A DNA stretch of 58,956 bases from a virus. Its lineage: Duplodnaviria; Caudoviricetes. Where the stretch lies: positions 1 to 58,956 of IMG/VR virus record IMGVR_UViG_3300019863_000024. One strand, 5' to 3'. The stretch's first letter is position 1, and the number at the start of each line of letters is the position of its first letter. The position numbers and the translations under genes were made by a program. Below, in pieces: positions 122 to 39,767 of this stretch. Below the pieces are notes generated by a model. The model was not told the origin of the DNA. It did not search any database and saw only the letters and a program-made list of their open reading frames with translations.

Positions 122-209
122 TAAAATAAGAGTGTTTAATACCTAAGGTATATAATCATATGGGTGTTAGTTAGTTTAGCTTATATAGGCTAAGCTAGAT
201 AGGTAGAAT
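122..209. repeat. 88-bp direct repeat, copy 1
   Basis: TAAAATAAGAGTGTTTAA (122-139) and AAGCTAGATAGGTAGAAT (192-209) both recur exactly 501 bp downstream; the middle is diverged. Confidence 0.75.
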
Positions 210-3628: not shown

Positions 3629-3729
3629 ATTAAATCCTTTTTGATTTGACTCTTACATACTTATGATGAATATGTAAGACATTGGTTGGCTATATAAGCA
3701 CAATGGAGTAATACCTATTATTATTCCAA

Positions 3730-3741
3730 TATACCCCACTA
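3730..3741 (-). promoter_or_regulatory. Candidate phage-RNAP promoter motif TAGTGGGGTATA, copy 2
   Basis: Exact repeat of 3034-3045, about 100 bp upstream of the 3628 start. Confidence 0.45.
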
Positions 3742-4105
3742 AAAGAACTATAGTTAGCTATTAAACCTATTGCTAAGTTATTGAGTTTGGTATGTGTGCA
3801 TATATAATGTAAGTAGGATATTAAGGTTATTTAGTTAATTAATAGGATAGGTTAGGTTTAGTATAGTTAATTGATTGTAGGTTATTCTCAGCTTAGTGTG
3901 CTATGGTTATGTATAGGTTATTTATCTATATGGTATAGTAGTTTATATAGTAGTCTATTAGAGCTGATTTATATAGTAAGGTAACCAATGTGTTAGGGTA
4001 GGTAAGTAATGAGGTTATATAGGGCAATACTAGCTATTAATGTATGATGTGCGAGTATATAATTATAATATAGTAATAAAAAAATATAGATAAAGGAATT
4101 AACCT

Positions 4106-4291
4106 CTATCTATCATATCCCCTCCAGTCGAAAGGGATTTTTGTATATGTATATGCTATGGTAGTCTTTCCATAGCTTTCAAATACGTTATATTTAAATT
4201 CATGGTCATTTGGAGTATTCTGTATCAGTTTATCAATTACACTAGACAATCTGTCTATTTCCACTTTTATCACTCTTCTTTTTCTATGCAT
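4106..4291 (-). CDS. Small hypothetical protein
   Basis: 61-aa ORF, AAAAGGA RBS, hairpin plus T-run immediately downstream. Confidence 0.55.
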   Translation of the reverse strand: MHRKRRVIKVEIDRLSSVIDKLIQNTPNDHEFKYNVFESYGKTTIAYTYTKIPFDWRGYDR

Positions 4292-4310
4292 CTTTTATCC
4301 TTTTAATTCA

Positions 4311-4454
4311 TTATTTAACTATGGTACTTATGACATCAGCTGTTGAACTTATTTCTTTTCCTACAGCGTCTGTAACGTCTACAGATGTAGATGCTAGTCG
4401 TATTGTTTCTGACTTGAATGATTTTCTTTTTCTTGTTATTGGTTGATTTGTCAT
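4311..4454 (-). CDS. Small hypothetical protein (47 aa, not in ORF track)
   Basis: MTNQPITRKRKSFKSETIRL...IVK* with AAAGGA RBS. Confidence 0.45.
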   Translation of the reverse strand: MTNQPITRKRKSFKSETIRLASTSVDVTDAVGKEISSTADVISTIVK

Positions 4455-4703
4455 GATGTATCCTTTATTGATAATACTTTGATTAACAGTACTATTTACT
4501 GCACTATGACCTACTAACCAGTAGAGTACCTAGCTATGTTATTTGTATGGTAGTATGGTAGCTATAGGATGATTCTATGTGCTGGTACTCTTGACCCTAG
4601 GGGGGTATCTGTCAGGTATTTGGTTTGTACTTTTTAGATGATAACTGGATTATATTTTAGGTAGGTATGATGAGATATTGGGGTGTACTACATCCTATAT
4701 TAT

Positions 4704-4773
4704 ATCACTTGTCTTTTATCACTTGTCTTTTATTACCTATATCATACTCCCTATCTAAATACTCCCTATCTAA
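4704..4773. repeat. Short tandem duplications
   Basis: (ATCACTTGTCTTTT)x2 at 4704-4731 and (ATACTCCCTATCTAA)x2 at 4744-4773. Confidence 0.8.
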
Positions 4774-4999
4774 ATCCTACATCCTGTATTACTCTAACTG
4801 TATATTATTTATTAACTACAAACTACATATTGTTACCTCATCATTATTACTTTATTAAAGGTATCTAGCTAAGCCTAGGAGGGTTTTTATTACTCTTGTT
4901 GATAGATTGTATAGGTTATAGGTTAATCATGCTTATTTCATTAGGTATTTAATTGGATAGTAGGTATACTGTTAATATTAATTAATGAAAGGGTTAGAG

Positions 5000-5149
5000 A
5001 TGTATGTAGATACAAAGTATGGTTTAGGAATAGTGATTAAAGAGTTTAGTGATGGTATGGTATTAGCATTTATAGATGGTCATAGATACTTTCTTTTAGT
5101 TGTTAATTCTGATGTAAGAAGAAGTATTGCTTATAATAAATATAAGTAA
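5000..5149 (+). CDS. Possible 49-aa hypothetical protein
   Basis: MYVDTKYGLGIVIKEFSDGMVLAFIDG...; weak AAAGGG RBS. Confidence 0.3.
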   Translation: MYVDTKYGLGIVIKEFSDGMVLAFIDGHRYFLLVVNSDVRRSIAYNKYK

Positions 5150-5185
5150 AAATAATGCAAATTCTTTTAAAAGATTTTATGAAAG

Positions 5186-5427
5186 TTATTCACATAGTTA
5201 TTCACATCATTTAGTTAACATGTGAATAAGTAAGAAAGTCCTATATTGTGGGGTTTAGTTAATTTCTATGTTTAAGGTTAAAGTTAAAAAATTTATTCTC
5301 TAGCAGGGGTTTTATGGGCTTTAAACGCTTAAGAAAAGTCAAATACCTATATTGTGGGATTTACTAAAATTAATTATTAAATTATTTATGATGTGAATAA
5401 AATTGATATGCCTATATTGTGGGATTT
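5186..5427. promoter_or_regulatory. Putative replication origin: 4 DnaA-box-like nonamers and 3 iteron-like repeats
   Basis: TTATTCACA at 5186 and 5198 (+), 5221 and 5392 (-); CCTATATTGTGGG at 5240, 5346, 5411; AT-rich spacers. Confidence 0.55.
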
Positions 5428-5435
5428 GCAAGCTC

Positions 5436-5463
5436 TTGACAAAATAAATATATACGATATAAT
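5436..5463 (+). promoter_or_regulatory. Consensus sigma70 promoter
   Basis: TTGACA-N16-TATAAT upstream of the packaging/morphogenesis operon. Confidence 0.6.
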
Positions 5464-5599
5464 AAATAATGTGAACGCCAGTGAACTAAACCCATATACT
5501 AGCCTCTATGGCGACTGAATAGAATACCCACTCCACACAACAATAATAGATAAGAGAGAAAGAAGAATGTATTAAGGTAGTTAAGGGTAGAATGGTTTG

Positions 5600-5665
5600 T
5601 ACCTAAGATAAGTTTTTCCTTTTAATATTCCCCTCTCTCTCCTTTTATTTTTCTTATCTTAGGTA
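5600..5665. repeat. 13-bp perfect inverted repeat next to an extended -10 (TGGTATACT, 5666-5674)
   Basis: TACCTAAGATAAG (5600-5612) / CTTATCTTAGGTA (5653-5665). Confidence 0.65.
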
Positions 5666-5695
5666 TGGTATACTATTGTACTTAAAGGAGAAACC

Positions 5696-23636: not shown

Positions 23637-25952
23637 ATGATGAATGACATATTACATATTGTTCAAGAGAAACTAGAACTGAGTAGAAACTATTCTGATA
23701 TTATAAAAGGTAGGATAGTTAATTATAGGAAGTATTACTCAGACGTAGGAGCAACATCTCCATCTACATCTAAATTCAGTACTTATAGGAGTAAATCTAT
23801 AAGAAAGGAGTTTAGTAAGATAATACCATCCATTACTGAGCCAGTGTTAAGTAATGATAGGTTATTTACTTCCTCAGGTCTTAGTGATGATGATAAGAGT
23901 ATTAAACTATTAAACTTTCAATGGAACTTCTTTTTAGATAAGAATAGAATTGTAAATGAAGCTGTTAATAACTTTGTAATTGATGGTACAGCTATTATTA
24001 AATCTGAATGGGAGTTGATTACTGAGGTTAGACAAAAGAAAAGTCTTATCTATAGTTCAGATGCTAAAGAGGTCTTACATGTAGCTTCATTAAAGACTAA
24101 ATCACAATCTAAAAAGATATTAGATGAGTTTAATACTACAGGTAAAGCTCCTATAGGTATCAGAGAGGAAGATGAAGAGGTTGTGTTAGAGAATAGACCT
24201 ACAATCAAGTGTATTAACCCTTTGAACATCATAGTAGACACTACAGCTAAGAATATTAAAGATGCTAGGTTTGTAATTGAATCTTATGAATTAACTTATA
24301 AGAAGATTTTAAATAATTATAGATTGTATACTGTATCACCATTAGAGATTATTAAAGAAGCATTTAGTCAATCATCAGATTACTCTATATATGATGCAGA
24401 ACAGTTCTCTATGGTTAATCAGAATGGTAATATTGAAAACTTAATTAATGCATTTGTAGGTTCATATAATACTCTAGCTGATAAGAAAGTATTAGCCTAT
24501 GAGTATTGGGGTGAGATAAGTGAAGATGGTATTATTACTAAACCTAAGGTAGTTACTTGGATTGGAAGTACTGTTATTAGATATGCTGATAATCCTTTTA
24601 CTCATAAGACTCATCCATATTCAGCTGGTTCATACAATCATAGTAATGACTCTATATTTGGTGAATCAGATAGTGAGTTAATAGTTGATGACCAGACAGG
24701 GTTAACTAGAGTTATGAGGGTATTAGATAATGCATCTATTAAAGCTGAGAGTCAACAAGAGTTTATTGAGGAGGGTTTCTTACCTGACATTACTCAACAA
24801 CAAAACTATAAGAATAGTAAGACTGTATTCTTTAAGAGAGGTTCAGATCCAAGAAAAGCTATTTATAAGAACTCTGTAGAAGCCTTACCTGAGAATGTAG
24901 CTTTCCTTAAGGATGTGTATAGTAGACAGATTAGTGATTCATTAGCTATAACACCTGATTATGTGAATAATACCAATTCAGTAGAAGATCCTGTAGATGA
25001 TAAAGAAATGAGTAAACTTAGAAACTTTCTTGATATCCTGAGTGATGTAGGTTCTAAGATTCTATCTATGAATAAACAGTTTATTTATGAAGATATTGTT
25101 ATTTCATCTAATGATGATGAGGAGTCAACTAGAGTATTCCCTGAGGATTTAGTTTATAAGAATGGTATGACTGTAGCCTCAGCAATATCAAAGAGACAAC
25201 GTAGACTTAATGAAGATAGAATTATGAAGTTAATGTCTACACAGTCAGCTAATATGTCTCCTAAGATTGCTTCACTTCATTACTTAGAGTTGGCTAAGAT
25301 GTTTGGTAAGTATAAATTAGCTTCTAACATTCAAAGAGAAATAGCTAACATGGACAAACCTAACCCAAGAGATGAATTAGAACTTGAGAAACTAAAACTT
25401 GAGAATAATAAGATTCAATTAGAAATGAAAAGATTAGAAGCAGATTCTAAACAATTAAATTCTAAAGCTGAAGAGAACATAGCTAAAGCAGTTGAACGAT
25501 ACTTTGCTGTTAGTAAAGATGTAGCAGGTTCTGAATCTGAATTAAATATGTCAAGAAGTGACTTAGCAGAATCACAAAAATCTAAGTTTAATGCTCAAAC
25601 AGAATTATTTAATCAAGAGTTCCATTTGATTAATTCAGGTGTTAAACAAGAGAATGAAGATGCTAAGATAGAGTTCCAACATCAAGCTAATATGGAGCGT
25701 GAGAGAGTTAGAACTGATAGAGAGTTAGAACTTAATGATAAAGCACACAAACAAGCCCTAGAACAGTCTTCTAAGGGTTCTAAACAAGATGATAATGCTA
25801 ATCCATTGCTTCAATATATAAAGGCAGGAACACTTAATAATACATCTTATGATTCTGCAGATGATGTCTATAGAAACATACTTGGTAAGAACTCATTAGA
25901 TACATCAAAATACACTAAACCACAAGGAGATAACAATGCTAACAATGAATGA
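23637..25952 (+). CDS. Portal protein (N4 gp59-like)
   Basis: LLNFQWN, DGTAIIK..W, NRPTI..INPLNIIVD, AYEYWG, VTWIG..IR...NPF, SIFGESD; C-terminal coiled coil. Confidence 0.85.
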   Translation: MMNDILHIVQEKLELSRNYSDIIKGRIVNYRKYYSDVGATSPSTSKFSTYRSKSIRKEFSKIIPSITEPVLSNDRLFTSSGLSDDDKSIKLLNFQWNFFLDKNRIVNEAVNNFVIDGTAIIKSEWELITEVRQKKSLIYSSDAKEVLHVASLKTKSQSKKILDEFNTTGKAPIGIREEDEEVVLENRPTIKCINPLNIIVDTTAKNIKDARFVIESYELTYKKILNNYRLYTVSPLEIIKEAFSQSSDYSIYDAEQFSMVNQNGNIENLINAFVGSYNTLADKKVLAYEYWGEISEDGIITKPKVVTWIGSTVIRYADNPFTHKTHPYSAGSYNHSNDSIFGESDSELIVDDQTGLTRVMRVLDNASIKAESQQEFIEEGFLPDITQQQNYKNSKTVFFKRGSDPRKAIYKNSVEALPENVAFLKDVYSRQISDSLAITPDYVNNTNSVEDPVDDKEMSKLRNFLDILSDVGSKILSMNKQFIYEDIVISSNDDEESTRVFPEDLVYKNGMTVASAISKRQRRLNEDRIMKLMSTQSANMSPKIASLHYLELAKMFGKYKLASNIQREIANMDKPNPRDELELEKLKLENNKIQLEMKRLEADSKQLNSKAEENIAKAVERYFAVSKDVAGSESELNMSRSDLAESQKSKFNAQTELFNQEFHLINSGVKQENEDAKIEFQHQANMERERVRTDRELELNDKAHKQALEQSSKGSKQDDNANPLLQYIKAGTLNNTSYDSADDVYRNILGKNSLDTSKYTKPQGDNNANNE

Positions 25953-26349: not shown

Positions 26350-26504
26350 GTAATCTACCTATTTAGTTAGGTAGAGTTTTAAAATTACTTAATATATAAT
26401 TTGCATAACTTAAGTTTAGTTTCATTCTACACCTATGAATCACTATCTTATTTACTTTATAAAAGTTATGCTATAATCACCTCATACAAATATAAAGGAT
26501 TATT

Positions 26505-26993: not shown

Positions 26994-28123
26994 TGAACGA
27001 GAGTAACCAAAATACACCAGAGAAGACTGATGAAGAGCTTTCAGCATATCTAGCTTCTTTATCCAATACACTACCTACTGAGGATTCATCTATAGAGGAG
27101 GTTACTACACCTCCAGATGAGACTTCTGATACTACAAACACTCCTATAGAAGCTACTGAGGGTGAAGACTCTGATAATGTAGACTCAGGAAATGTTAAGG
27201 AAGTAGATGCTACTATTGATTCAGATACAAATACTTCTATTGATGGAAGTGATATTGAAAAAGTTACAGATACTTTACAAGATGCAAATGAAACACCTGA
27301 TTTTACAGAAGCACTCAAGAACATAGGAGTTACTTCATTAGAGAAGTTAGATGAATTAAATAATGCATTTAAATTAAATAAATTAAAGTCTAAGCAATAC
27401 TCACAGTTTGATGAACAACTGCATATAGTTAAAGAAGCTAAATTATCAGCTACAGACTTAGCATTAGCTACAGAAGCTTTACAAGGTAATCCTGAGGCTA
27501 TTAAGAAGATTATGAAACTAAAAGAGTTAGACCCTGTAGACTTCATTACAGATGATGAAGATGAAGAACCTACAATAGATGAGTCAAAGTATAAGGTTAA
27601 GAGTGAAGAAAAACTCTTTAATGATGCTTTACTTGTAGCAGAATCACGAGGTGTTAGTGATAACTTTATGAATGCATTTAACTCTTGGGACGAGGGTTCC
27701 CTTAATGATATGATGAGTAATAAGAACAATGTAGACTTATTCATTAAAGAGTTATCAGATGGTAGTTTTGATGAGATTCAGACTATTATTAATGAGCAAG
27801 AAAGTCAGGATTTTAATGGTTCTTTTGGTGAAAAGGATTCATTAGATAAATATATTTATGCTCAACAAATTTATAAAGATAGACACAAACCTATTGAACC
27901 AAAAGTTCAGGTAAATGATGCTGAACCTACTTCTAGTAAAGAGGAGGTACAAAAGGTAGTCGTTAATAATAATAATACACAGAAACTAAATGAAGCTAAA
28001 CTAGCCTCAGAACAGAGAACCGTTTCTAATTCAAATACAACTAATAGTGAGCAAACTAACAAGGCTTACTCAAGTGTAAGTGATGAAGAATTTTTTAAAA
28101 TGTTTGATGAAAAATATAAATAG
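26993..28123 (+). CDS. N4 gp57-like protein, putative scaffold
   Basis: Acidic disordered N-terminus, GNPEAIKKIMK..LDPVD, C-terminal SDEEF; precedes the capsid gene. Confidence 0.7.
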   Translation: MNESNQNTPEKTDEELSAYLASLSNTLPTEDSSIEEVTTPPDETSDTTNTPIEATEGEDSDNVDSGNVKEVDATIDSDTNTSIDGSDIEKVTDTLQDANETPDFTEALKNIGVTSLEKLDELNNAFKLNKLKSKQYSQFDEQLHIVKEAKLSATDLALATEALQGNPEAIKKIMKLKELDPVDFITDDEDEEPTIDESKYKVKSEEKLFNDALLVAESRGVSDNFMNAFNSWDEGSLNDMMSNKNNVDLFIKELSDGSFDEIQTIINEQESQDFNGSFGEKDSLDKYIYAQQIYKDRHKPIEPKVQVNDAEPTSSKEEVQKVVVNNNNTQKLNEAKLASEQRTVSNSNTTNSEQTNKAYSSVSDEEFFKMFDEKYK

Positions 28124-28141
28124 TAACTTAAAGGATAAATT

Positions 28142-29461
28142 ATGGCAACAAATGGTGTACAAAGCTTCAATGGTGGTAATCCATCAGTAGGAGAACAATT
28201 AACAGAGTTTGATATGACAAGAGTGGCTGTCAGAGAATCAAGACGTAAAAGACCTTGGTCTCAAATGGCTAAATTACAAAAGATTAAAAGAAACCATGGT
28301 GATACTTTCAAGAAAGAACGTAAATACCCTGTACTTCATAAAGCTAATATTAATACTATGGGTGTTGATCCAGAGGGTTTACAACTTCTTCCTACAAAAT
28401 GGTATGCTTGGGATGTTAATAGAGTTAGAACTGAGCATGCAACTAAAGCAGAAGCATTAGCAAGTCCAGGTCAAGTGAGTATTATGTCAGGTGAGGGTAA
28501 CCTTTATGGTGGTTCAAAAGACTTTGCTCAACAAGAGGGAAGTATTCCAGAATTACGTGAGTCTGGTGGACGTGTTAACGTTGTAGGTAGTAAACGAGTT
28601 ATTCTAACTGGAAAGATTAAGCTATATTCATTGTCTGAGGAGTTTTCTCGTACTGAAATGGAACTTGGTGGTGAAGAAAGATTAAAAGCTGAAAAGTCTA
28701 TGGAACTTGGTGAAGCTTATGCTGACTTACGTGAGACTATGATTAGAAATGACTTGTTAAGTCAAGCATTAACATCTCCAGTATATGCAGGAACAGCTTT
28801 AACTATGGATCAAATTGATGAGACATGTCTTGTTACTTATGATACATTAAGAAGATTTCAATCTAAACTTGACCTTTTAAGAGTTCCTATGGCTACTCGT
28901 ATGATTACTGGTTCAACTAAAGTTGGTACAAAGGTTGTTGAAAGTGCTAGATACTATTATATTCCTTTAGAACTAGAAAGAACAATTGAAGAGATCCAAC
29001 ACAATGGTACATCAATGTTTAAGTTTGTCTCTGAGTATGCTGGCTCTACTGTAGGTATTGCTGATCGTGACCAAGATGTTAATGCTGCAAATGGTGAAAT
29101 TGGTGCTATTGGTAAGGCTAGATTCATTTCTGATTCTAATATGGGTTACTTCCAAGGTGTAGGTGCAGATGCTACTGATGGTAATGATGCAGATGGTAAT
29201 GGAATTGAAGATGCTGGTGAGGGTCTATCTATCACAGACGGTAAGTATGATGCATTCCCAATCCTTTCTGTAGGTGCTGAGTCATTTGAGGTTCTAGGAC
29301 TTGAGGGTGATGATGTTAGTGTTAAATATGCAGCTCCAAAGATTATTCCAGGTATTGATAATACTGGTGAATTAGGAGTTGTTAGTGTTAGATTCTGGTA
29401 TGGTCTTCTATTCAACAAGATTGAGCAATGTAACTGTATTCTAACAGCAGGATTGAAATAA
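28142..29461 (+). CDS. Major capsid protein, N4-gp56 family
   Basis: GNLYGGSKD, PELRESGGRVNVVG, MITGS, GEIGAIG..RFI, GELGVVSVRFWYG. Confidence 0.92.
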   Translation: MATNGVQSFNGGNPSVGEQLTEFDMTRVAVRESRRKRPWSQMAKLQKIKRNHGDTFKKERKYPVLHKANINTMGVDPEGLQLLPTKWYAWDVNRVRTEHATKAEALASPGQVSIMSGEGNLYGGSKDFAQQEGSIPELRESGGRVNVVGSKRVILTGKIKLYSLSEEFSRTEMELGGEERLKAEKSMELGEAYADLRETMIRNDLLSQALTSPVYAGTALTMDQIDETCLVTYDTLRRFQSKLDLLRVPMATRMITGSTKVGTKVVESARYYYIPLELERTIEEIQHNGTSMFKFVSEYAGSTVGIADRDQDVNAANGEIGAIGKARFISDSNMGYFQGVGADATDGNDADGNGIEDAGEGLSITDGKYDAFPILSVGAESFEVLGLEGDDVSVKYAAPKIIPGIDNTGELGVVSVRFWYGLLFNKIEQCNCILTAGLK

Positions 29462-29487
29462 GGTAGCTTAGTCAATCTTATAAGTAT

Positions 29488-29519
29488 TAACCTAGACATT
29501 AAGTTGTTTAGGTTATACT
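29488..29519 (+). promoter_or_regulatory. TTAAG-N10-TATACT promoter embedded in a hairpin
   Basis: TAACCTAGACA-ttaagt-TGTTTAGGTTA running into TATACT; same layout near 30346, 31371, 32156. Confidence 0.55.
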
Positions 29520-29526
29520 GATTTAT

Positions 29527-29657
29527 ATATCTTTTATGGTTATTACTCTACTTAACTCTATAGTAACCCTAAAAGGTATTAATTTGATATGAGTTGCTTG
29601 GTAATCAATTTCATATAACCTTTAAAACTTATTATTATTACCGAAAGGGTATTCATT
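29527..29657 (+). ncRNA. Structured leader A (two hairpins; loop TTGGTAAT pairs with ATTACCGA at the RBS)
   Basis: Stem 29527-29545/29561-29579; stem 29587-29596/29606-29616; target 29637-29644. Confidence 0.55.
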
Positions 29658-30326
29658 ATGAATGAACTACAATTATATGGGTTTAAAGCTGAGACTCTAG
29701 CTGATACTAAAGTTACATTTGCATTACAACAAGGTTTATGGCTAAATGCTACTGAAGTTGCTAAGAGTTATGGTAAAGACTTACAGGGATATTGGAGACT
29801 ACAAGATACTATTGATTATATAGATGTTGTTGCAGAATCTAATTCAGTTCTCACGACTGAATTAAAAATAGCTGTAAAAGGTAAGTATGGTGGTACATAT
29901 ATTCATCCAGATTTAGTAATTAGTTTTGCTAGATGGGTAAATCCTAAGTTTGCTTACGAATGTGATAAGTTCATTAAAGATGAAATCATAAGAGTAAATA
30001 CTATTAAAACTGAAGCATTACTTGAACAAGCTGAGAAAGATAAACAACAAGCTGTGATGGAAGCTAAGAGATGTAAAATCTATGACGATGGTTCAATGAG
30101 TGTTAGAGGTATTATTCAACATTTAGGGTTAGATGTAACAGAAGACTTTGTTTGGGATGCTTTAACCTATGCAGGGTTTAATGAGGATATTACCAAAGTA
30201 ACAAAATATAGACGTATCCCAGATAATACACCATCTTATATTGGTACACCTAGAGGTACTCAAAGTCCTACTTTTTTCCCACAAGTAGTTAAACAAGTAG
30301 TATTAGACTATATGGATGTAGTATAA
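29658..30326 (+). CDS. KilA-N domain antirepressor-like protein
   Basis: WLNATEVAKSYGK...YW, GGTYIHPDLVISFARWVNPKF. Confidence 0.88.
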   Translation: MNELQLYGFKAETLADTKVTFALQQGLWLNATEVAKSYGKDLQGYWRLQDTIDYIDVVAESNSVLTTELKIAVKGKYGGTYIHPDLVISFARWVNPKFAYECDKFIKDEIIRVNTIKTEALLEQAEKDKQQAVMEAKRCKIYDDGSMSVRGIIQHLGLDVTEDFVWDALTYAGFNEDITKVTKYRRIPDNTPSYIGTPRGTQSPTFFPQVVKQVVLDYMDVV

Positions 30327-30373
30327 ATTAATTCTTACCCTATTATTAAGTTTAATAGGGTATACTTTAAAAG

Positions 30374-30480
30374 ATACTTTAGAGGTTACCAAGCCAATTC
30401 AGTTATCATCTATTACACTCGTAGTTGATGGTAACCTCTAAAGTATTAATTTGTGATAAGCATAATGGTAATCTTCCACT
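30374..30480 (+). ncRNA. Orphan leader of type A with no ORF behind it
   Basis: Perfect 18-bp stem 30374-30391/30429-30446, TAATTTG linker, second loop containing TGGTAAT. Confidence 0.5.
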
Positions 30481-30540
30481 CAAGAGACAATCTTCTATTT
30501 TTGAATCTATACTTAAATTATGTATGGTATACTTATGTCT

Positions 30541-30675
30541 TAATGGTTTTAATGGTGGTCTTATAATCTCTTTATCACTTGGTAAAGGTCTCCATTAAGG
30601 TTGTTAGTTACACAATTAGTACTGAGACTACTAAACCATAAACCTTAAACTTATTGTCTCGAAAGAATATTTAGC
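30541..30675 (+). ncRNA. Structured leader B (code GTCT / TGAGAC)
   Basis: Stem 30541-30562/30585-30606; hairpin TTAGTA-ctgagac-TACTAA; GTCTCG at 30656-30661 next to the RBS; homologous to 50632-50770(-). Confidence 0.6.
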
Positions 30676-31347
30676 ATGAGTAGACTACAACTACAAAGCC
30701 TTAAATCAATTACTTTGCATGAGTTACAAGTGTCACTACAACAAGGCTTATGGTTAAATGCAACCCATATTGCTAAAGACTATGGTAAAGACTTATCTAA
30801 CTATTGGAGAAGTTCAGGTACAGAACAATACTGTAAAGCATTAATAAACTCTAATTATGAAGATTTCACTGATATCAAACAGATTGTTGTAGGTAGAGGT
30901 AAAACACAAGGAACTTTTATACATCAAGATTTAGTAATTAACTTTCTATTATGGATTGGTATAAAATATAAAGATATCATTAGTATACCATCTATTAGTG
31001 AGAGTATGCGACAAAAGAACATAGAGATTGGTGGTTCAATAGAGGTAAAGAATACTAAAAAGATTTCAAATGTTTTATACTTAATAACTGATGGTATATA
31101 CACAAAGATAGGTATAGCTACTAAGAATGCTACTAGAAGACTTAAACAATGTCAGACTGGTAATCCTAAGAAATTATGGATTGAGTTTGAAGTCTTTATT
31201 ACAAATGCAAGAGAGATAGAAGCTAAACTTCATAAAGAGTACTCTGATAAAAGACTTATGGGAGAGTGGTTTAAGTTAGATAAGAGTGATATTGAAGACA
31301 TTAAGTTTAAGACATTATATCCTTTCCATAAAGACTCTATCAGCTGA
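30676..31347 (+). CDS. KilA-N plus T5orf172 (GIY-YIG-like) protein
   Basis: WLNATHIAKDYGK...QGTFIH; C-terminal VLYLI..TKIG..RRLKQCQTGNP...IEAKLH...GEWF. Confidence 0.88.
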   Translation: MSRLQLQSLKSITLHELQVSLQQGLWLNATHIAKDYGKDLSNYWRSSGTEQYCKALINSNYEDFTDIKQIVVGRGKTQGTFIHQDLVINFLLWIGIKYKDIISIPSISESMRQKNIEIGGSIEVKNTKKISNVLYLITDGIYTKIGIATKNATRRLKQCQTGNPKKLWIEFEVFITNAREIEAKLHKEYSDKRLMGEWFKLDKSDIEDIKFKTLYPFHKDSIS

Positions 31348-31399
31348 AGATACTTTTACCCACGTATTTATTAAGTTAAGTATGCTATAATTATATACA

Positions 31400-31536
31400 A
31401 ACAATTTCATTATATTCACTAGAAGTTTTCTTGACGGTCTTTCTGCTAGTGGATATACTGAAGTTGTTAAGTGAAAGACCGTCAATCTCTCACTCGATCC
31501 AAGAATCGACTTACATTTTGACATATAGGATTCATT
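31400..31536 (+). ncRNA. Structured leader C (code TTGAC / GTCAA)
   Basis: TTGACGGTCTTTC (31431-31443) is the perfect complement of GAAAGACCGTCAA (31473-31485) in the second hairpin; TTGAC again at 31518-31522 before the RBS. Confidence 0.6.
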
Positions 31537-32139
31537 ATGAATGAATTAATTAAAGTATTTGATGATGCAGTGTTACCTATAGAGGTAATTAATGAAAAAG
31601 AGTTTATGGTAAACGTTAGTGGTATTGCTAATAAGTATGGTAAACGATTTAAGGATTGGAAAGATTCTGCTAGAGTTTCAGAATTACTTAAGATAAGAGA
31701 AAATTCGCATAACTTAAAGCAAACTGAACTTATACTTATTAGTGGTAATACACAAAAAGTACATAATAGTATGTTGGTATCTTTCGCAAGATTTATATCA
31801 CCAGAGTTTGAGGTATGGTGTGATGATACTATCTATGAGATTCTCACTGAGTCTAAAGATAAGGAGATTAAGAGACTCAAAGAAGAACGTAAGTTATGTA
31901 TGGTAGATGCTAATGGTTACTCATCTATCAGAGGTATTGCACAACGTAGTGACTATACCGAGTCTCAGATACAAAGGTTCTTTGTTAAGCTTGGAGCTAT
32001 TGAGGACTCTATTAGACCAACAAAGTATTGGTATATGAAAGATGATAATAATGGTCTATTAATGAGTAGAGGAGAGTTTCAAACTCCTTATATAAAGCTA
32101 GATAAAGCTATTAGACTACTAGACCAATACTATAAATAG
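31537..32139 (+). CDS. KilA-N domain antirepressor-like protein
   Basis: VNVSGIANKYGKRFKDW...VHNSMLVSFARFISPEFEVWCD. Confidence 0.85.
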   Translation: MNELIKVFDDAVLPIEVINEKEFMVNVSGIANKYGKRFKDWKDSARVSELLKIRENSHNLKQTELILISGNTQKVHNSMLVSFARFISPEFEVWCDDTIYEILTESKDKEIKRLKEERKLCMVDANGYSSIRGIAQRSDYTESQIQRFFVKLGAIEDSIRPTKYWYMKDDNNGLLMSRGEFQTPYIKLDKAIRLLDQYYK

Positions 32140-32316
32140 ACTATTCACATACTTATTAAGTTAAGTATGTTATACTAATACTACCTACATTACAATTAAA
32201 ACCTGGTGTGTAGGGAAATCTACCAATTTACTTACTTTACCTTACTTTCCTATTAAACCACTAATTAAGACTTCATACAGTATAATGAGTTCAAACTAAC
32301 AATAAAGGATAGACCT

Positions 32317-32922
32317 ATGGAAATAAAATTTGAGGATATTAGTGTTGAATACATTAACTCATTAGATAAGCAAAAAGAGTTACAAGATATCTTACTATCA
32401 GCGTTTAATAAGACAAGTGTCCCATTTGCTAAGAACCCTAAGAACCCTAAAACTGATGATTTAAAAGCTTATATGATTGGACTCTATGTAGCAAAGATTG
32501 AATCTATCGAAGAAGCTAAACGAGCTAAAGAACTAGCTGAACTAAGTAAAACTTCTGAGGGTAAAGCTAAGAGTAGACGAGAGAGACTTCAAGAAGCTAC
32601 TAAATTAGTTCCTGTAATTATTTCTGATTCAAACCCTAATCAAACTTTAGATGATTCATCAGGTATTGCTGAGTTTAAGACTTATGGTAATGATGAGATA
32701 GGTTTACATACTAGATTAGTAGTATTTGATGTACCATGGTTACTCCCTAATGCATTACTTGATAGCATGAGACAAGCTACTTATTCGAAGTTTGTTCAAA
32801 GAGGTAATAGTGTTATGCAAATTGCTCCTACACCAAGATATAGTATTCAAGAACTCCCTATGTTAACTCCAGAAGATATAGAAAAAATGAAGAAGATTAA
32901 AGCTACAATGGAAAACTATTAA
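32317..32922 (+). CDS. N4 gp55-like protein
   Basis: EATKLVPVII...NP, GNDEIG...VVFDVPWLLP, YSIQELPMLTPED; synteny. Confidence 0.75.
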   Translation: MEIKFEDISVEYINSLDKQKELQDILLSAFNKTSVPFAKNPKNPKTDDLKAYMIGLYVAKIESIEEAKRAKELAELSKTSEGKAKSRRERLQEATKLVPVIISDSNPNQTLDDSSGIAEFKTYGNDEIGLHTRLVVFDVPWLLPNALLDSMRQATYSKFVQRGNSVMQIAPTPRYSIQELPMLTPEDIEKMKKIKATMENY

Positions 32923-32938
32923 TAGTAAAGGATAACTC

Positions 32939-34540
32939 ATGCCTATAGTTACAAACCACCCTAATGCCGAAGTAGATAGCGTAGACTTTAATACAATATT
33001 AGATAGTCTACCTGATGCTTTAGATATACCTACAGATTTAGGTAAACTTGATGACTTAATTTCTAAACTTACTGATAGTAATAATAGGATTTCAAGTGAG
33101 AAATTAATTGGAGAGGGTACATTAGAGGATGGTGGTTTAGTAGGCTCATTACTTCATTTATTAAGAGCTCATAGTGTTGCATCTTTAAAGTCTGGAGAGT
33201 TAACTAAAGCTAACTTAGGTGAAGTATACTCAGGTCTTTTAAATGTTGCTACAGATACAGCTGTTAAGATGTTAACTTCAAGTTCTACAGAGTTACAAAC
33301 TGCAACTGAAGCCTTATCAAGAGCTATTATGGCTAAGATTAGTATAAATGAAGAAGTTGCTAAGTTACAGTATGAAAAGTATAAAGTAGCTGGAGAAGCT
33401 TACAAATTAGAAGTATTAAACCCTTTAACAAGAGAACAACTTAAAGAGACTAATGAAAAGCTTCATATAGACCATGAGATAGCTAAATATACCTACGATT
33501 ATATCTTACCTGAGGATTTAGGTGCTAAGGTAAAGAATAACAGTCTATTAGATATTAATTATAAAGAGAGAGAGTACTCCTATACAAATATACTACCATT
33601 AGACAAGTCTATCAAAGATAAACAGATAGATGATATGACTGTTGGAACCAGTATCAAAGAGTATAACTTATCAGATATGTTACCTACTGACAAAGAAATC
33701 AAATTAAAACAAATTGATGATTTAGCTAAAGATACATCTATTAAAGACTATAACCTTACTAATATTCTCCCAGCTGATAAAGATATGAAGTTAAAACAGA
33801 CTCAAGGTATAGAGAAAGATACATCCATTAAAGATTATAACTTAACAAATATCTTACCTTTAGATAAGAGTATGAAAGAAGATCAGATTGCTGATTTAGC
33901 TAAAGAGACAGAAATTAAAAGTTATAATTTAACTAATATACTCCCTTTAGATAAGAATTTCAAGACAAATCAAGTTGCTGACTTAGCTAAAGATACTGCT
34001 ATTAAAGACTTTAATCTAACAAATCTTCTACCTTTAGATGAAAGCCTTAAAAATAATCAGATTAGTGACTTAGCCAAGAGTACAGAAACTAAAGCATATA
34101 ACTTATCAGATATACTACCAGCACAGAAAGATAAACTATTGGCTGATAATGGTCTTGTAACACAAAACACCACTAATGCAGCAACACAGAATGACATCCT
34201 TGGTATAGAGAAGTTAATTAAAGATTATTATCATACTAACATTCAACCTGAAGAGTATTCACTATCTAAAGCAAAAGCATTCATAGAGGAAGTTAATGCA
34301 GGAGAGTATGTTGTAGCTGACTCTTTACCTTATAAGAAGATGCAACAAATAGATGTTCAAACATCACTATATGATAGACAGATAGGAACTTATGATGATG
34401 TTAAGTATCAAAAGTTATTAAATACTATTATGAATTATAACTCCATGATTTTCCCTGACAATACTGCAACTGATAAGTTATTACCTTGGGCTGTAGATCA
34501 TACAAATAGTCTTAATATCTATAACACTTTAATGGGTTAG
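32939..34540 (+). CDS. N4 gp54-like virion/tail protein with 29-aa repeats
   Basis: GEG...GGLVGSLL, LYDRQIGTYDD..QK; synteny. Confidence 0.65.
   Translation: MPIVTNHPNAEVDSVDFNTILDSLPDALDIPTDLGKLDDLISKLTDSNNRISSEKLIGEGTLEDGGLVGSLLHLLRAHSVASLKSGELTKANLGEVYSGLLNVATDTAVKMLTSSSTELQTATEALSRAIMAKISINEEVAKLQYEKYKVAGEAYKLEVLNPLTREQLKETNEKLHIDHEIAKYTYDYILPEDLGAKVKNNSLLDINYKEREYSYTNILPLDKSIKDKQIDDMTVGTSIKEYNLSDMLPTDKEIKLKQIDDLAKDTSIKDYNLTNILPADKDMKLKQTQGIEKDTSIKDYNLTNILPLDKSMKEDQIADLAKETEIKSYNLTNILPLDKNFKTNQVADLAKDTAIKDFNLTNLLPLDESLKNNQISDLAKSTETKAYNLSDILPAQKDKLLADNGLVTQNTTNAATQNDILGIEKLIKDYYHTNIQPEEYSLSKAKAFIEEVNAGEYVVADSLPYKKMQQIDVQTSLYDRQIGTYDDVKYQKLLNTIMNYNSMIFPDNTATDKLLPWAVDHTNSLNIYNTLMG
33401..34140 (+). 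repeat. About 9 copies of an 87-bp (29-aa) coding repeat
   Basis: YNLTNILPLDKxxKxxQIxDLAKDTxIKD units starting every 87 bp from 33401 to 34097. Confidence 0.85.
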
Positions 34541-37742: not shown

Positions 37743-39767
37743 ATGGCTATTAAAGATTTTATAAGACCTCCATCAGGACAAATTAGAGCACCTCACCTTT
37801 CTAGTTATGGTGATGCTTTTGCTCCATTAACAGATCATATTCAAAGATTAGTAAATGCAAGAAATAAGAAAGAAGCAGTTCAAAAACAGATGGACTTTCA
37901 AATTGCTAGAGATAAAGCAAGACAAGACTTTCAAGCTAGAATGCAAGATGATAATCAAGAGTTTCAAAGTAATCAACAAAATACTAGGATTCAAGCTAGT
38001 GTTAATGCAGCTAAGGAACTACAAAAGAATCATGTAATCAATGCTGCAACTAACCATAGATATGATGTAGATAATAATAAAAGAAATTATAGAAACCAAG
38101 TGAACCTTAAAGGCATTGCTCATAAATATGATGTAGATAATAGTCAAAGAAACTTTAGAAACCAAGCAAACCTTAGAAGTATTGATCATAACTATCGTAT
38201 GGAAGATGCTCAAAATGCATATAATAATCAAGTGAATCTTAGGGAAATTAACCATAACTATGATATGGAAGACAGAGCTAAAGCTTACGACAATCAAGTG
38301 AATCTTAAAGACATACAACATAACTACGATGTAGAGGATAGAAACACTGCTTATGATAATCAAGTTAATTTAAGTAATATTCGACATAACTATGCTGTGG
38401 AAGATAGAGCTACAGACTATAACAATCAAGTAAATCTAAGAGGCATTGATCATAATTATAGAGTAGAAGATGCAGACAGAGCGTATGACAACCAAGTCAA
38501 TCTTAGAGGTATCGATCACAACTATAGGGTTGAAGATGCAGATAAAGCATATAACAATCAAGTTAACCTTAGGGGTATTGACCATAATTATAAAGTAGAA
38601 GACGAAGATAGAGCATTTGGTAATCAAGTTAACTTGGATAGTGTTAGGCATACTTATGACATAGATAAAATCAATGCTACAGCTGAAAAACAAAAAGAAA
38701 TGGCTAACCTTGCATTATCAAATAATAAAAAGCTAATTAACTTCAAGAATGGTTTAACAGAAAAAGCAAATAAGACTTATAGTAAGTTTCTTGAACCCTC
38801 TATTGTTTACTCTAAACCTAACGATGTTGCTACTAAAGAGGCTACAGTTAAAGCTCAATCTATCTCAGAGCCTAAGGTTAAAACATTATCAGATTCCTTT
38901 AATAAGAAGATTAATTCTGTTAGTAAGAAGTTAGGTATATCCTATGAAGATTACAATAAGAATAAAGATAAAGTAGACTCTCTCATAAAATCTACAGGAC
39001 TGACTTTAAAAGACTTTAAAGCAACTAAAGGAAGTTATACAACAAAGTATGGTAGTGTAATAGACTTATCAAAACCATCAGAAGCAGAAGATACAGTATC
39101 TTCTCTAACTGAATCAATATCTTCAGACTCTAAGAAGTTAAAATTTTTAGCTAAAAAGGGTTTAACTTATAGAGATGCATCATTCAGAAAGATAAGAGAT
39201 AGTATTGATAAGAAAACTGAAAAGGTTAATAATATTTACAAGTTAATTAACAATCCTAACCTTATTGAAGTAGCAAAAGCTTCTAAAGTATTTAAACCTA
39301 TAGAGTCAAAGTTTAATAAAGCTAGAGAGGCTATCAAAAAAGATGCATTTCGGTCTATAGGTATTAAAGACTATAAGCATTTACCAACTGATAATAAACC
39401 ACATATTGATTATGAAGCTACTATTCAAAGAAAGGCTGATAACCTAAAACAAGCTATGGCTAAAGGTGCTCCTAAGACTATAATATCTTTTTTACAAAAG
39501 GATTTAAGTAACTTACAGAAAGTTAATGCTAGTGCTCAAAAGCAAGTAGTATCAAAGAATAATACTCAACAAAATATTATTAAGAATACAAGGATCTCTA
39601 GTATTAACAGCTCTATAGCATCAGCAAGAGATGAACTTAAGGCTATTAACACTCAAAGAGCTAAGGATGATGGAGATATCAGTGAGAGCAATAAGAAAAG
39701 AATACTAGACTTAAAGAGAGAAATTAAAAAGCTTAATGCAGAAAAAGCTTCTGAAAAAATGAATTAG
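37743..39767 (+). CDS. N4 gp51-position ejection protein with 22-aa repeats
   Basis: No Cys seen, helical, directly upstream of vRNAP. Confidence 0.6.
   Translation: MAIKDFIRPPSGQIRAPHLSSYGDAFAPLTDHIQRLVNARNKKEAVQKQMDFQIARDKARQDFQARMQDDNQEFQSNQQNTRIQASVNAAKELQKNHVINAATNHRYDVDNNKRNYRNQVNLKGIAHKYDVDNSQRNFRNQANLRSIDHNYRMEDAQNAYNNQVNLREINHNYDMEDRAKAYDNQVNLKDIQHNYDVEDRNTAYDNQVNLSNIRHNYAVEDRATDYNNQVNLRGIDHNYRVEDADRAYDNQVNLRGIDHNYRVEDADKAYNNQVNLRGIDHNYKVEDEDRAFGNQVNLDSVRHTYDIDKINATAEKQKEMANLALSNNKKLINFKNGLTEKANKTYSKFLEPSIVYSKPNDVATKEATVKAQSISEPKVKTLSDSFNKKINSVSKKLGISYEDYNKNKDKVDSLIKSTGLTLKDFKATKGSYTTKYGSVIDLSKPSEAEDTVSSLTESISSDSKKLKFLAKKGLTYRDASFRKIRDSIDKKTEKVNNIYKLINNPNLIEVAKASKVFKPIESKFNKAREAIKKDAFRSIGIKDYKHLPTDNKPHIDYEATIQRKADNLKQAMAKGAPKTIISFLQKDLSNLQKVNASAQKQVVSKNNTQQNIIKNTRISSINSSIASARDELKAINTQRAKDDGDISESNKKRILDLKREIKKLNAEKASEKMN
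38094..38680 (+). repeat. 9 copies of a 66-bp (22-aa) coding repeat
   Basis: NQVNLRGIDHNYRVEDADRAYD units starting every 66 bp from 38094 to 38622. Confidence 0.9.

What the first reader, a model, noticed from the sequence alone, without database searches (positions are those of the whole stretch)
29527..31536. Family of structured leader RNAs with interchangeable complementary codes in front of antirepressor-like genes
Seen: each KilA-N/Rha gene has promoter, long hairpin 1 containing sequence X, short linker, hairpin 2 whose loop holds the complement X', an A/U linker, then X again beside the RBS, usually followed by ATGAATGAA (MNEL). The code differs: A = TTGGTAAT/ATTACCGA; B and D = TGAGAC/GTCTC(T); C = GAAAGACCGTCAA/TTGAC. 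All three sites change together, which is covariation. Known: P1 c4 and P4 CI antisense RNAs use an upstream-target / antisense / downstream-target layout to control antirepressor or lytic operons. Inference: a set of orthogonal RNA switches (cis pseudoknot or processed trans-acting RNA), possibly an unannotated ncRNA family, in a phage group usually viewed as lytic.
Basis: partly seen in the sequence, partly recalled or inferred. Interest (0 to 1): 0.85.

Follow-up and report, generated by a model that had tools for sequence, protein, structure and literature searches.

The report
Paralogous structured leaders on phage accessory genes
A distant N4-like phage carries four to six related copies of a promoter followed by a long folded RNA leader in front of its add-on regulator-like genes; the leader family is real, but the proposed three-site matching code that would make it an RNA switch is only partly supported.

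Summary
The window is a distant N4-like phage contig. Between the capsid gene and the gene that normally follows it sit three KilA-N cassettes plus one gene-less remnant. Two more cassettes (a Rha fragment and a KilA-C-like gene) lie at 50 kb on the minus strand.

Each cassette has the phage's own promoter type, a hairpin (H1) starting 6-8 nt after the -10, a conserved linker, a small hairpin (H2), an A/U stretch and the RBS. Core genes with the same promoter type have 24-30-nt leaders.

Family status is solid. A covariance model built from B and D alone finds A and C as its next-best hits. H1 shows 12 of 20 pairs changed on both sides.

The H2 loop is clearly complementary to an H1 segment in C (13 nt) and D (11 nt). 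The third site beside the RBS is suggestive only in A versus B/D and at chance level in C and E.

There is no Rfam hit (no C4), and no homologue turned up elsewhere.

Best reading: a cis-acting leader carried on a mobile promoter-leader cassette, similar to T4 PeSLs. A c4-like antisense switch is not excluded, at roughly 12%. Interest is moderate.

The parts
29499..29519 (+). Promoter of cassette A (TTAAGTT-N9-TATACT)
29521..29657 (+). Leader A. H1 is 29527-29579, the linker 29573-29584, H2 29586-29617 with loop TTGGTAAT at 29598-29605. The pre-SD complement ATTACCGA is at 29637-29644 and the SD GAAAGGG at 29643-29649.
   Evidence: (CM R1 25.7 bits, E 0.0053)
29658..30326 (+). Gene A, a KilA-N protein of 222 aa. 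Its C-terminal half is 36% identical to that of gene E.
30346..30512 (+). Orphan A: promoter 30346-30366, H1 30373-30447 (19-bp perfect lower stem), linker 30441-30451, and a degenerate H2 with loop ATGGTAAT at 30465-30472. It has no RBS and no gene, and runs directly into promoter B.
   Evidence: z -5.4; family D20, 72% to A; 14.9 bits, E 0.81
30513..30533 (+). Promoter of cassette B (TTAAATT-N9-TGGTATACT)
30537..30675 (+). Leader B. H1 is 30541-30606, the linker 30597-30609, H2 30616-30634 with loop CTGAGAC at 30622-30628. The pre-SD complement GTCTCG is at 30656-30661.
30676..31347 (+). Gene B, a KilA-N plus T5orf172/MUG113 protein of 223 aa. Its KilA-N domain is 48% identical to A's.
31371..31391 (+). 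Promoter of cassette C (TTAAGTT-N8-TGCTATAAT)
31395..31536 (+). Leader C. H1 is 31400-31468, and its apical loop holds TTGACGGTCTTTC at 31431-31443. H2 is 31470-31494 and holds GAAAGACCGTCAA at 31473-31485. TTGAC is at 31518-31522 and the SD AGGA at 31527-31530.
   Evidence: 25.5 bits, E 0.0057
31537..32139 (+). Gene C, a KilA-N protein of 200 aa. It is 44% identical to a gene at the same place in relative L007.
32156..32176 (+). The same promoter motif in front of conserved gene 32317-32922 (phrog_2130). No family leader follows it.
50629..50787 (-). Cassette D. The -10 is 50787-50782, H1 50775-50701 with GGGTCTCAA at 50760-50752, the linker 50709-50697, and H2 50694-50666 with TTGAGACCC at 50683-50675. 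The pre-SD complement GTCTTG is at 50649-50644 and the ATG at 50631.
50446..50631 (-). Truncated Rha-like ORF behind leader D (61 aa from the ATG; Phage_pRha 23.9 bits, below the cut-off of 29.9)
50245..50358 (-). Cassette E leader. It has promoter TTAAGTT..TATAAT, H1 starting at 50330, a small second hairpin, and a 9-bp hairpin that pairs the SD AAGGAG. The layout matches the family, but it is not found by the family model.
49513..50244 (-). Gene E, 243 aa, with no Pfam hit. Its C-terminal domain is shared with gene A.

Best explanation
These are paralogous copies of one mobile regulatory cassette. Each consists of a promoter of the phage's own (extended -10) type followed by a roughly 135-nt structured 5' leader that acts in cis on the mRNA of the accessory gene behind it.

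Shown:
- The leaders are homologous.
- Hairpin H1 is conserved through compensatory changes. It folds better as sense RNA and starts at the predicted first transcribed bases.
- The cassettes sit at a site where relatives have no insert or a different one.

Inferred:
- H1 protects the 5' end, insulates the cassette from read-through out of the capsid gene, or both.
- The conserved loop of hairpin 2 can pair either with a strand of H1 (8-13 bp) or with the 5-8 nt abutting the Shine-Dalgarno sequence. On this view the leader sets or switches translation of potentially harmful regulator-like genes.
- The repeated promoter-leader sequence serves as the recombination site by which such genes are gained, swapped and lost. 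The gene-less orphan copy and the truncated Rha genes would be the debris of this.

I give the cis-acting-cassette part about 0.55. The specific three-segment switch is about 0.3 within that.
For: Family:
- Model R1, built from B and D only, finds A (25.7 bits, E 0.0053) and C (25.5 bits, E 0.0057) as the next-best of all hits in the window. The search covered both strands with filters off, and both hits are full length and end at their ATG.
- B and D are 79% identical. A and orphan A are 72% identical over 39 nt.

H1:
- On the model-fitted alignment of 4 leaders, 96.9% of cells pair, against 76.4% in shuffles (0/500). 15 of 26 pairs change on both sides, against 5.4 in shuffles (0/500). Slid controls give 37-52% paired.
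- Sense RNA is more stable than antisense in 6 of 6 H1 regions, by 2.6 to 11.9 kcal/mol.
- H1 starts 6-8 nt after the -10 in 6 of 6 leaders.

Long leaders are specific to the cassettes: the same promoter type at 5666 and 26469 has leaders of 24 and 30 nt.

Loop-to-H1 complement:
- C has a 13-nt exact match (0/2000 shuffles) and D an 11-nt match (p=0.001).
- Duplex energies are C -22.8 and D -26.4 (0/500 each) and orphan A -14.7 (p=0.03).

Loop-to-pre-SD helix:
- RNAalifold picks it for B/D.
- 3 of 6 pairs change on both sides between A and B/D, and 18 of 18 cells pair.
- A has an 8-bp run, p=0.017 when the loop region is shuffled.

Cassette mobility:
- The phrog_2130 gene follows the capsid gene within a few hundred bases in relatives; 30 of 80 loci gave a match.
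- Only L007 (C-like KilA-N) and L010 (T5orf172 gene) carry inserts there.
- L010 has the same promoter, TAAGTTATGCTATACT, with a 7-bp hairpin right after it.

The 'code' does not follow the protein. B (KilA-N) and D (Rha) share one code, whereas A and B (KilA-N domains 48% identical) differ.
Against: - There are no transcript data, so start sites are inferred from -10 hexamers only.
- Whole-leader folding energy is not unusual for A, B or C (z -1.3, +0.2, -1.5).
- The RBS-side pairing is within chance for C, D and E, and also for A by energy. When the 10-nt target is shuffled instead of the loop region, A, B and D all give p about 0.17.
- The alignment used for pair counts was fitted to the structure and holds only 4 sequences from one genome.
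- Energies of the alternative folds are not consistently balanced. B favours the long-range helix by 5.4 kcal/mol, C favours H1+H2 by about 7, and D is within 1.8.
- H1 is not followed by a U-run, and no terminator-like site was found in 29300-33100, so a terminator role is unsupported.
- The nearest relative with a C-like gene (L007) has a short, unstructured leader.
- No homologous leader was found outside this contig.
Confidence: 0.55

Rival explanations
1. Each leader would contain a c4/P4-CI-style antisense element: the hairpin-2 loop, possibly processed out and acting in trans. It would pair with an upstream and an RBS-side target of matching 'code'. The result would be a set of orthogonal RNA switches for antirepressor-like genes.
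For: - The order upstream complement, loop, RBS-side complement exists in A, B, C and D.
- The loop core is the best-kept part of hairpin 2 within each pair: TGGTAAT in A and orphan A, TGAGAC in B and D.
- Between A and B/D, 3 of 6 pairs of the loop-to-pre-SD helix change on both sides.
- The genes behind the leaders are KilA-N or Rha type.
- As described in PMC5320573 (passages read), P1 c4 is cut from a longer transcript and its loops pair beside the RBS.
Against: - There is no Rfam C4 match, even at E<=10.
- There is one loop rather than two, and no three-stem fold.
- Three-site sharing is not significant in any leader (p 0.07-0.94).
- Cross-pairing energies are not diagonal.
- The RBS-side site in C is a 5-mer, 4 nt away from the SD, at chance level (p 0.66-0.95).
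- No further target sites lie beside other start codons in the window.
- The upstream complement is far stronger than the RBS-side one. In C it is -22.8 against -7.7 kcal/mol, and in D -26.4 against -8.7. In cis, the loop would therefore mostly be captured away from the RBS.
Confidence: 0.12
2. The hairpins would be only insulators or processing sites: 3' ends or RNase III-type sites for read-through transcripts from the capsid gene, together with 5' protection of the cassette mRNA. On this view the complementarities among H1, the hairpin-2 loop and the pre-SD segment are by-products of A/U-rich, partly duplicated sequence, and there is no switch.
For: - H1 is the only strongly covarying element (12 of 20 pairs).
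- The first hairpin after the capsid stop codon is H1 of leader A. Relatives L007 and L008 have a plain hairpin at that place.
- The RBS-side pairing is near chance.
- T4 PeSL stem-loops act as terminators or attenuators between accessory genes (PMC2839356, passages read).
Against: - The 13-nt and 11-nt exact complements in C and D are far beyond chance. In B versus D that long-range helix keeps pairing through changes on both strands; this was worked out by hand.
- The loop cores are conserved where the hairpin-2 stems are not.
- No U-tract follows H1.
Confidence: 0.22
3. The repeated words would be DNA sites rather than RNA pairs: operators in direct and inverted orientation. They would be bound by the KilA-N/Rha proteins themselves (autoregulation) or by a recombinase that moves the cassettes.
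For: - KilA-N and Rha are DNA-binding domains (Pfam names).
- GTCTC-type words occur 3-4 times within about 110 nt in B, and GGTAA-type words recur in A and orphan A.
- In C, the inverted 13-mers overlap the best sigma70-like match of the region (31431-31459).
Against: - The word set does not follow the protein. B (KilA-N) and D (Rha fragment) share it, while A and B, whose KilA-N domains are 48% identical, do not.
- The helices contain G.U pairs and fold better in the sense strand in 6 of 6 cases, which points to RNA.
- No integrase or recombinase was noticed near the cassettes, but only the ORFs listed were scanned.
Confidence: 0.08

Closest known systems
PeSL (promoter-early stem-loop) cassettes of T4-type phages (PMC2839356 and PMC4122927; abstracts and passages read)
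   Same: - A conserved host-type promoter plus a stem-loop is repeated in front of non-essential, variable genes grouped in a plastic region.
- Copies flank genes that differ between relatives.
- They are proposed to insulate transcription and to serve as recombination sites.
- The position of the stem-loop relative to the promoter varies in PeSLs, and here it lies just after the -10.
   Different: - The host phage is N4-like, not T4-like.
- The promoter lacks a TTGACA -35.
- The leader is about 135 nt with two hairpins and a conserved linker, not a short G/C stem-loop.
- No U-run or terminator-like site is present.
- No mini-circles or recombination events were observed here. Only their presumed products are seen: the orphan copy and the truncated genes.
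c4 antisense RNA of phages P1/P7 (immI: c4-icd-ant). Features taken from passages of PMC5320573 and PMC8201110. The upstream a1/b1 sites, and the similar seqA-CI-seqC layout of P4, are recalled and come from no call.
   Same: - A complementary element sits inside the leader of an antirepressor-type operon, with one complement upstream and one beside the RBS.
- Specificity could be changed by changing loop and targets together.
   Different: - No match to the Rfam C4 model.
- One loop instead of two (a', b'), and no three-stem fold.
- No evidence of RNase P processing or of trans action.
- The RBS-side complement is short (5-8 nt) and not above chance in most copies.
- The phage is of a lytic type with no immunity region.
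5'-terminal stabiliser hairpins such as the ompA and papA leaders (Emory, Bouvet and Belasco 1992; Bouvet and Belasco 1992). These were seen only as entries in the reference list of PMC3997798; their content is recalled.
   Same: The stem-loop begins within a base or two of the predicted 5' end in 6 of 6 leaders.
   Different: - The start sites here are predicted, not mapped.
- The host and its RNases are unknown.
- H1 is much longer (12-19 bp lower stem, with inner hairpins) and is followed by further conserved elements.
RBS-sequestering hairpins of T4 late genes and free-standing homing-endonuclease genes
   Same: Selfish or accessory genes inserted into essential operons carry their own promoter and an RNA structure that limits translation. 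Leader E pairs its SD in a 9-bp hairpin, and the AUG of A and C sits in the loop of a 6-8-bp hairpin.
   Different: In T4 the discrimination is between long and short transcripts. No such pair of start sites is shown here, apart from a sigma70-like match inside H1 of C.

Membership tests
Rfam C4 antisense RNA (P1/P7 c4 type) | Sequence and three-stem secondary structure that match the curated covariance model | tested here: not met
   There were no matches at gathering score in the whole window. No C4 match appeared even at E<=10 in 29400-32400 or 50150-51150; only sub-threshold hairpin-like hits to unrelated families were returned.
Rfam C4 antisense RNA (P1/P7 c4 type) | Two loops (a', b') pair with the target mRNA, and b' partly occludes the RBS (PMC5320573 passage) | tested here: inconclusive
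   There is only one candidate loop. Its complement abuts the SD in A (8 bp), B (6 bp) and D (6-7 bp), but the p-values are 0.017-0.17. C and E are at chance level.
Rfam C4 antisense RNA (P1/P7 c4 type) | Processed from a longer transcript to about 77 nt by RNase P | not testable with these tools
   No sequencing run holding this DNA was listed.
PeSL-type promoter/stem-loop cassette | A conserved host-type promoter repeated in intergenic regions next to variable, non-essential genes | tested here: met
   The motif occurs at 6 cassette sites, and there is a variant at D. The cassettes lie between the capsid gene and the phrog_2130 gene, which are neighbours in relatives. By sequence only, and there is no TTGACA -35.
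PeSL-type promoter/stem-loop cassette | A stable stem-loop associated with each promoter | tested here: met
   H1 is present in 6 of 6 leaders at -8.8 to -30.8 kcal/mol. It is supported by covariation in 12 of 20 pairs.
PeSL-type promoter/stem-loop cassette | The stem-loop acts as a transcription terminator or attenuator | tested here: inconclusive
   The consensus scan found 0 terminator-like sites in 29300-33100, and H1 is followed by mixed A/U rather than a U-run. Function cannot be tested here.
PeSL-type promoter/stem-loop cassette | Found in T4-like myoviruses, and recombination between copies has been observed | tested here: not met
   The phage is N4-like: the capsid and portal proteins match N4-like families. 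Recombination is inferred only from the orphan copy and the truncated genes.
5'-terminal mRNA stabiliser hairpin | The stem begins within a few bases of the transcript's 5' end | tested here: inconclusive
   The first H1 pair lies 6-8 nt after the -10 hexamer in 6 of 6 leaders. The start sites are predicted, not mapped.

The most novel reading that the evidence does not exclude
A lytic-type N4-like phage would carry a home-grown family of leader-embedded antisense loops. Their specificity words (GGTAAT, GAGAC, GACCGTCAA) would have been swapped together with their upstream decoy and RBS-side target. This would give several independently addressable RNA switches for its antirepressor-like accessory genes. 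It would be functionally like P1 c4 or P4 CI, but unrelated in sequence and fold.
Probability: 0.12. Interest if true: 0.75.

Novelty: new variant of a known kind. Interest (0 to 1): 0.36.

Why it matters
If the cassette reading holds, promoter-plus-leader modules that travel with accessory genes are not a peculiarity of T4-type phages. They would also shape the plastic region behind the capsid gene in a clade of N4-like phages.

It would also add a new, fairly large (about 135 nt) structured leader family to a phage group whose RNA-level regulation is almost unstudied.

If the loop pairings prove functional, the four natural variants give a ready-made set of matched and mismatched partners for testing how a short RNA 'address' can be re-coded.

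At present the family is known from a single metagenomic contig with no host, which limits its value.

Tried and rejected
SEARCHES FOR HOMOLOGUES OF THE LEADERS (ALL EMPTY)
- Megablast of 29400-32400 against GenBank phages: no match.
- blastn of leader A: one 29-nt chance hit.
- The search for related loci in IMG/VR with protein A, protein B and the capsid protein: none.
None of the 120 loci fetched shows more than a 16-17-nt match to any leader.
- A strict B/D pattern gave 0 hits in IMG/VR. In the metagenome contigs it gave 1 hit, a chance match inside a coding region of a 273-kb contig.
- A capsid alignment against the species genomes gave 1 distant locus at 28% identity.
- blastn-short of 7 leaders against 80 N4-like loci gave only 14-18-nt chance matches.
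- Model R1 gave 0 hits in 81 loci, 924,674 bases.
- Model R2 gave 0 of 5 nearest relative records.
- R2 found no new copy in the window and did not find E.

SEQUENCING RUNS
None was listed for 28000-33000, and no RNA holder was listed.

TOOLS NOT AVAILABLE
The Logan/ENA contigs behind the closest capsid relatives (P0001 at 90%, P0002-P0006 at 54-64%) could therefore not be read.

IDEAS REJECTED
- N4 virion-polymerase hairpin promoters. As recalled, those are 5-7-bp stems with 3-nt loops, whereas these stems are 12-19 bp.
- Canonical terminators: none found.
- Leader peptides. Short ORFs start inside H1 of A, B and D, but they have no SD and no shared peptide; this was read by eye.
- A second promoter in the conserved linker. 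Plausible spacing exists only in C and D.
- A consistent bistable fold. The energies differ in direction between B, C and D.

NOT CONSULTED
Supplements of the PeSL papers were not consulted. Their figures of the PeSL subclasses might refine the comparison.
Full report
WHAT THE WINDOW IS

The window is an entire IMG/VR virus record of 58,956 bases (31% G+C), estimated 72% complete.
- The protein at 28142-29461 matches the major head protein family of N4-like phages. Its phrog_1357 E-value is 3.7e-48. It has about 30% identity to 477 GenBank records of N4-like phages. Metagenomic relatives are named 'N4-gp56 family major capsid protein'.
- The protein at 23637-25952 is a portal protein.
- A 3232-aa ORF at 39782-49480 has the size expected of the virion RNA polymerase. 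That is inferred from size only; I ran no family search on it.

WHERE THE CASSETTES SIT

- In relatives, the capsid gene is followed within a few hundred bases by a homologue of the window's gene 32317-32922 (phrog_2130). tblastn found that homologue in 30 of 80 N4-like loci.
- In the window, 2.85 kb is inserted between these two genes. It holds three KilA-N genes: A at 29658-30326, B at 30676-31347 (with a T5orf172/MUG113 domain), and C at 31537-32139. It also holds a gene-less remnant, 'orphan A', at 30346-30512.
- A second cluster lies on the minus strand between the 3232-aa ORF and the 2021-aa ORF. It holds a Rha fragment (51057-50932), leader D with another Rha fragment (50631-50446; both fragments are below Pfam's cut-off), and leader E with a 243-aa gene whose C-terminal domain is 36% identical to that of A.
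- Only 2 of the 80 relatives' loci have cassette-type genes at the capsid site. L007 has a C-like KilA-N (44% identity). L010 has a T5orf172 gene.

THE PROMOTER

- TTAAGTT-N9/10-TATAMT occurs at A, orphan A, B, C, in front of gene 32317, and at E. That is 6 of the 8 regex hits in the window. Three of these have TGn before the -10. D has only GGTTATACT.
- The same kind of promoter (TATGGTATACT at 5666, AAGTTATGCTATAAT at 26469) precedes core operons. There the leader is only 24 and 30 nt.
- L010 has TAAGTTATGCTATACT right after its capsid gene.
- The cassettes therefore use the phage's own promoter type. What sets them apart is the leader of about 135 nt.

THE LEADERS ARE ONE FAMILY

- B and D are 79% identical. 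A and orphan A share a 39-nt block at 72%.
- All five share a linker, AAGG(T)TRTTARKT. It occurs 7 times in the window, 5 of them in leaders, against 2.9 +/- 1.6 expected.
- A covariance model built from B and D alone finds A (25.7 bits, E 0.0053) and C (25.5 bits, E 0.0057) as the best remaining hits in the whole window. The search covered both strands with filters off. Both hits are full length and end exactly at their start codons.
- The next hit is the antisense of D (E 0.039). Everything else has E >= 0.29. Orphan A reaches only 14.9 bits (E 0.81), because it lacks the 3' half.
- Leader E has the same layout but is not found by either model.

HAIRPIN 1 IS WELL SUPPORTED

- On the model-fitted alignment of D, B, A and C, 96.9% of 97 cells form standard pairs. 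Shuffles give 76.4% (0 of 500 reach the observed value). Slid controls give 37-52%.
- 15 of 26 pairs show changes on both sides, against 5.4 in shuffles (0 of 500). 12 of these 15 lie in the 20 pairs of H1.
- Caveats: the alignment has four sequences from one genome and was fitted to the structure.
- Independently of the model, a hand comparison of A and orphan A gives six positions changed on both strands in a 19-pair stem.
- H1 folds better as sense RNA than as antisense in 6 of 6 leaders. For example, C is -25.2 against -16.0, and D is -26.6 against -14.7. This comes from G.U pairs and argues for an RNA-level role.
- The first H1 pair lies 6-8 nt after the -10 hexamer in 6 of 6 leaders. The transcript would therefore begin with the hairpin.
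- Against an exceptional fold: whole-leader MFE z-scores are -1.3 (A), +0.2 (B), -1.5 (C) and -5.4 (orphan A). No terminator-like site was found.

THE 'CODES'

Loop of hairpin 2 against a segment of H1 (the upstream site):
- C has a 13-nt exact complement (31431-43 with 31473-85; 0 of 2000 shuffles).
- D has 11 nt exact (p=0.001).
- A and B have 5-mers only (p=0.84 and 0.88).
- By duplex energy, C and D give 0 of 500 each. Orphan A gives p=0.03, A p=0.08-0.27 and B p=0.10-0.30.
- In B versus D, the long-range helix keeps pairing through changes on both strands at two or three positions. This was worked out by hand.

Loop against the bases abutting the SD (the RBS-side site):
- RNAalifold chooses this helix for B/D.
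- The model alignment places A's TGGTAA:TTACCG on B/D's TGAGAC:GTCTYG. 3 of 6 pairs change on both sides and 18 of 18 cells pair. C is gapped in this helix.
- The statistics are weak. Loop against downstream energy gives p = 0.15 (A), 0.012 (B), 0.66 (C), 0.12 (D) and 0.73 (E).
- With the target fixed to the 10 nt at the SD, the runs are 8 bp (A, p=0.017), 6 bp (B, p=0.17), 7 bp (D, p=0.08) and 5 bp (C, p=0.96). Shuffling the target instead gives p of about 0.17 for A, B and D.

All three sites together:
- The three-way shared word is a 5-mer in A, B and C, a 4-mer in D and a 3-mer in E. The p-values are 0.32, 0.07, 0.23, 0.55 and 0.94.
- The loop-by-RBS energy matrix is not diagonal.
- No other start codon in the window has such a site beside it.

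Reading of the codes:
- The upstream complement is real in C and D, and in B by descent.
- The RBS-side complement is suggestive for A against B/D.
- The claim that all three sites co-vary is not established.

ALTERNATIVE FOLDS

- Constrained folding gives H1+H2 against the long-range helix as -38.7 against -40.5 in D, -22.5 against -27.9 in B, and -37.6 against -30.5 in C.
- The leaders are therefore not uniformly poised between two states. Nested folding cannot score H1 together with loop pairing as a pseudoknot.
- The AUG of A and C sits in the 3-nt loop of a 6-8-bp A/U hairpin. The SD of E is paired in a 9-bp hairpin.

COMPARISON WITH KNOWN SYSTEMS

- Rfam gave nothing at gathering score. 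It gave no C4 match even at E<=10.
- As described in passages of PMC5320573, c4 has three stems and is cut out by RNase P. It uses two loops, one of which occludes the RBS. Here there is one loop and no such fold, and processing cannot be tested. The element may work like c4, but it is not a member of that family.
- The nearest described kind is the PeSL of T4-type phages. A PeSL is a conserved promoter plus stem-loop repeated beside variable accessory genes. It is proposed to insulate transcription and to mediate modular shuffling (PMC2839356 and PMC4122927, abstracts and passages).
- The window shares the repeated promoter, the associated stem-loop, the plastic location and the debris of shuffling (the orphan copy and the truncated Rha genes).
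- It differs in phage group, in lacking a -35 and a terminator-like tail, and in having a far larger leader with conserved parts beyond the hairpin.
- The DNA-operator alternative is weakened because the word set does not follow the protein domain: B (KilA-N) and D (Rha) share it, while A and B (KilA-N domains 48% identical) do not. It is also weakened by the sense-strand bias of the helices.

REACH OF THE FAMILY

No homologue of the leaders was found in any of the following:
- GenBank phages
- 80 N4-like IMG/VR loci plus one MAG locus
- the five nearest relative records
- pattern scans

No sequencing run was listed. Closer relatives exist: capsid proteins of 54-90% identity, mostly from Logan and ENA. 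L007's C-like gene has a short, unstructured leader. L010 has the same promoter with a short hairpin that overlaps its SD.

VERDICT

The finding points at something real: an unannotated family of paralogous structured leaders on promoter-leader cassettes that accompany antirepressor-like accessory genes in a distant N4-like phage.

The best-supported reading is a cis-acting leader on a PeSL-like mobile regulatory cassette. The switch built on the hairpin-2 loop is a reasonable but unproven refinement. A c4-like set of orthogonal antisense switches is possible but has little positive support.

Noticed in passing
window 5225-5427: Three direct repeats ending in CCTATATTGTGGGRTTT, 106 and 65 nt apart. 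They lie in an ORF-poor stretch (3630-5690) just upstream of the first gene of the long plus-strand operon. They could be promoters of another class or an origin region (families D11/D16).
   Followed up: no
window 122-178, 623-679, 4930-4958: A repeated motif, TGTTTAA..C.TTAGGTATA.AAT, looks like a further promoter class. Two copies share 77% identity over 57 nt (families D13/D14).
   Followed up: no
window 5666-5695 and 26460-26504: Core operons use the same promoter type as the cassettes (TATGGTATACT; AAGTTATGCTATAAT), but with short, unstructured leaders of 24 and 30 nt.
   Followed up: partly
window 31431-31459: The best sigma70-like match of the region (TTGACG-17-TATACT, 10 of 12) lies inside hairpin 1 of leader C. 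Its -35 is part of the 13-nt complement. A transcript started there would lack H1 and the upstream complement.
   Followed up: no
L007 9310-9500: In the closest IMG/VR relative, the last ~20 nt of the capsid gene (tggataagaactgttttggt) are repeated about 160 nt downstream. The repeats flank an insert that holds a G/C hairpin, which looks like a footprint of insertion or replacement at the capsid gene's 3' end.
   Followed up: no
L010 5030-5092: This relative has promoter TAAGTTATGCTATACT directly after the capsid gene. It is followed by a 7-bp hairpin (CTTGTAA/TTACAAG) whose 3' arm overlaps the SD AAGGAG of a roughly 440-aa T5orf172-containing gene.
   Followed up: partly
window 33566-34146 and 38055-38609: Tandem repeats with periods of 87 nt (6 copies) and 66 nt (7 copies) lie inside two large structural genes, which are thus repeat-domain proteins (families D1-D3).
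   Followed up: no
window 29722-29798 and 30734-30810: The KilA-N genes A and B keep 77% nucleotide identity over 77 nt (family D8) and 48% protein identity over 100 aa. This suggests a fairly recent duplication or exchange between neighbouring cassettes.
   Followed up: partly
window 29535-29591; 50764-50693 (-): Short ORFs of 18 and 23 codons start inside the 5' arm of hairpin 1 in A and D and stop near the linker. They have no SD and no shared peptide, so they are probably meaningless (read by eye).
   Followed up: no
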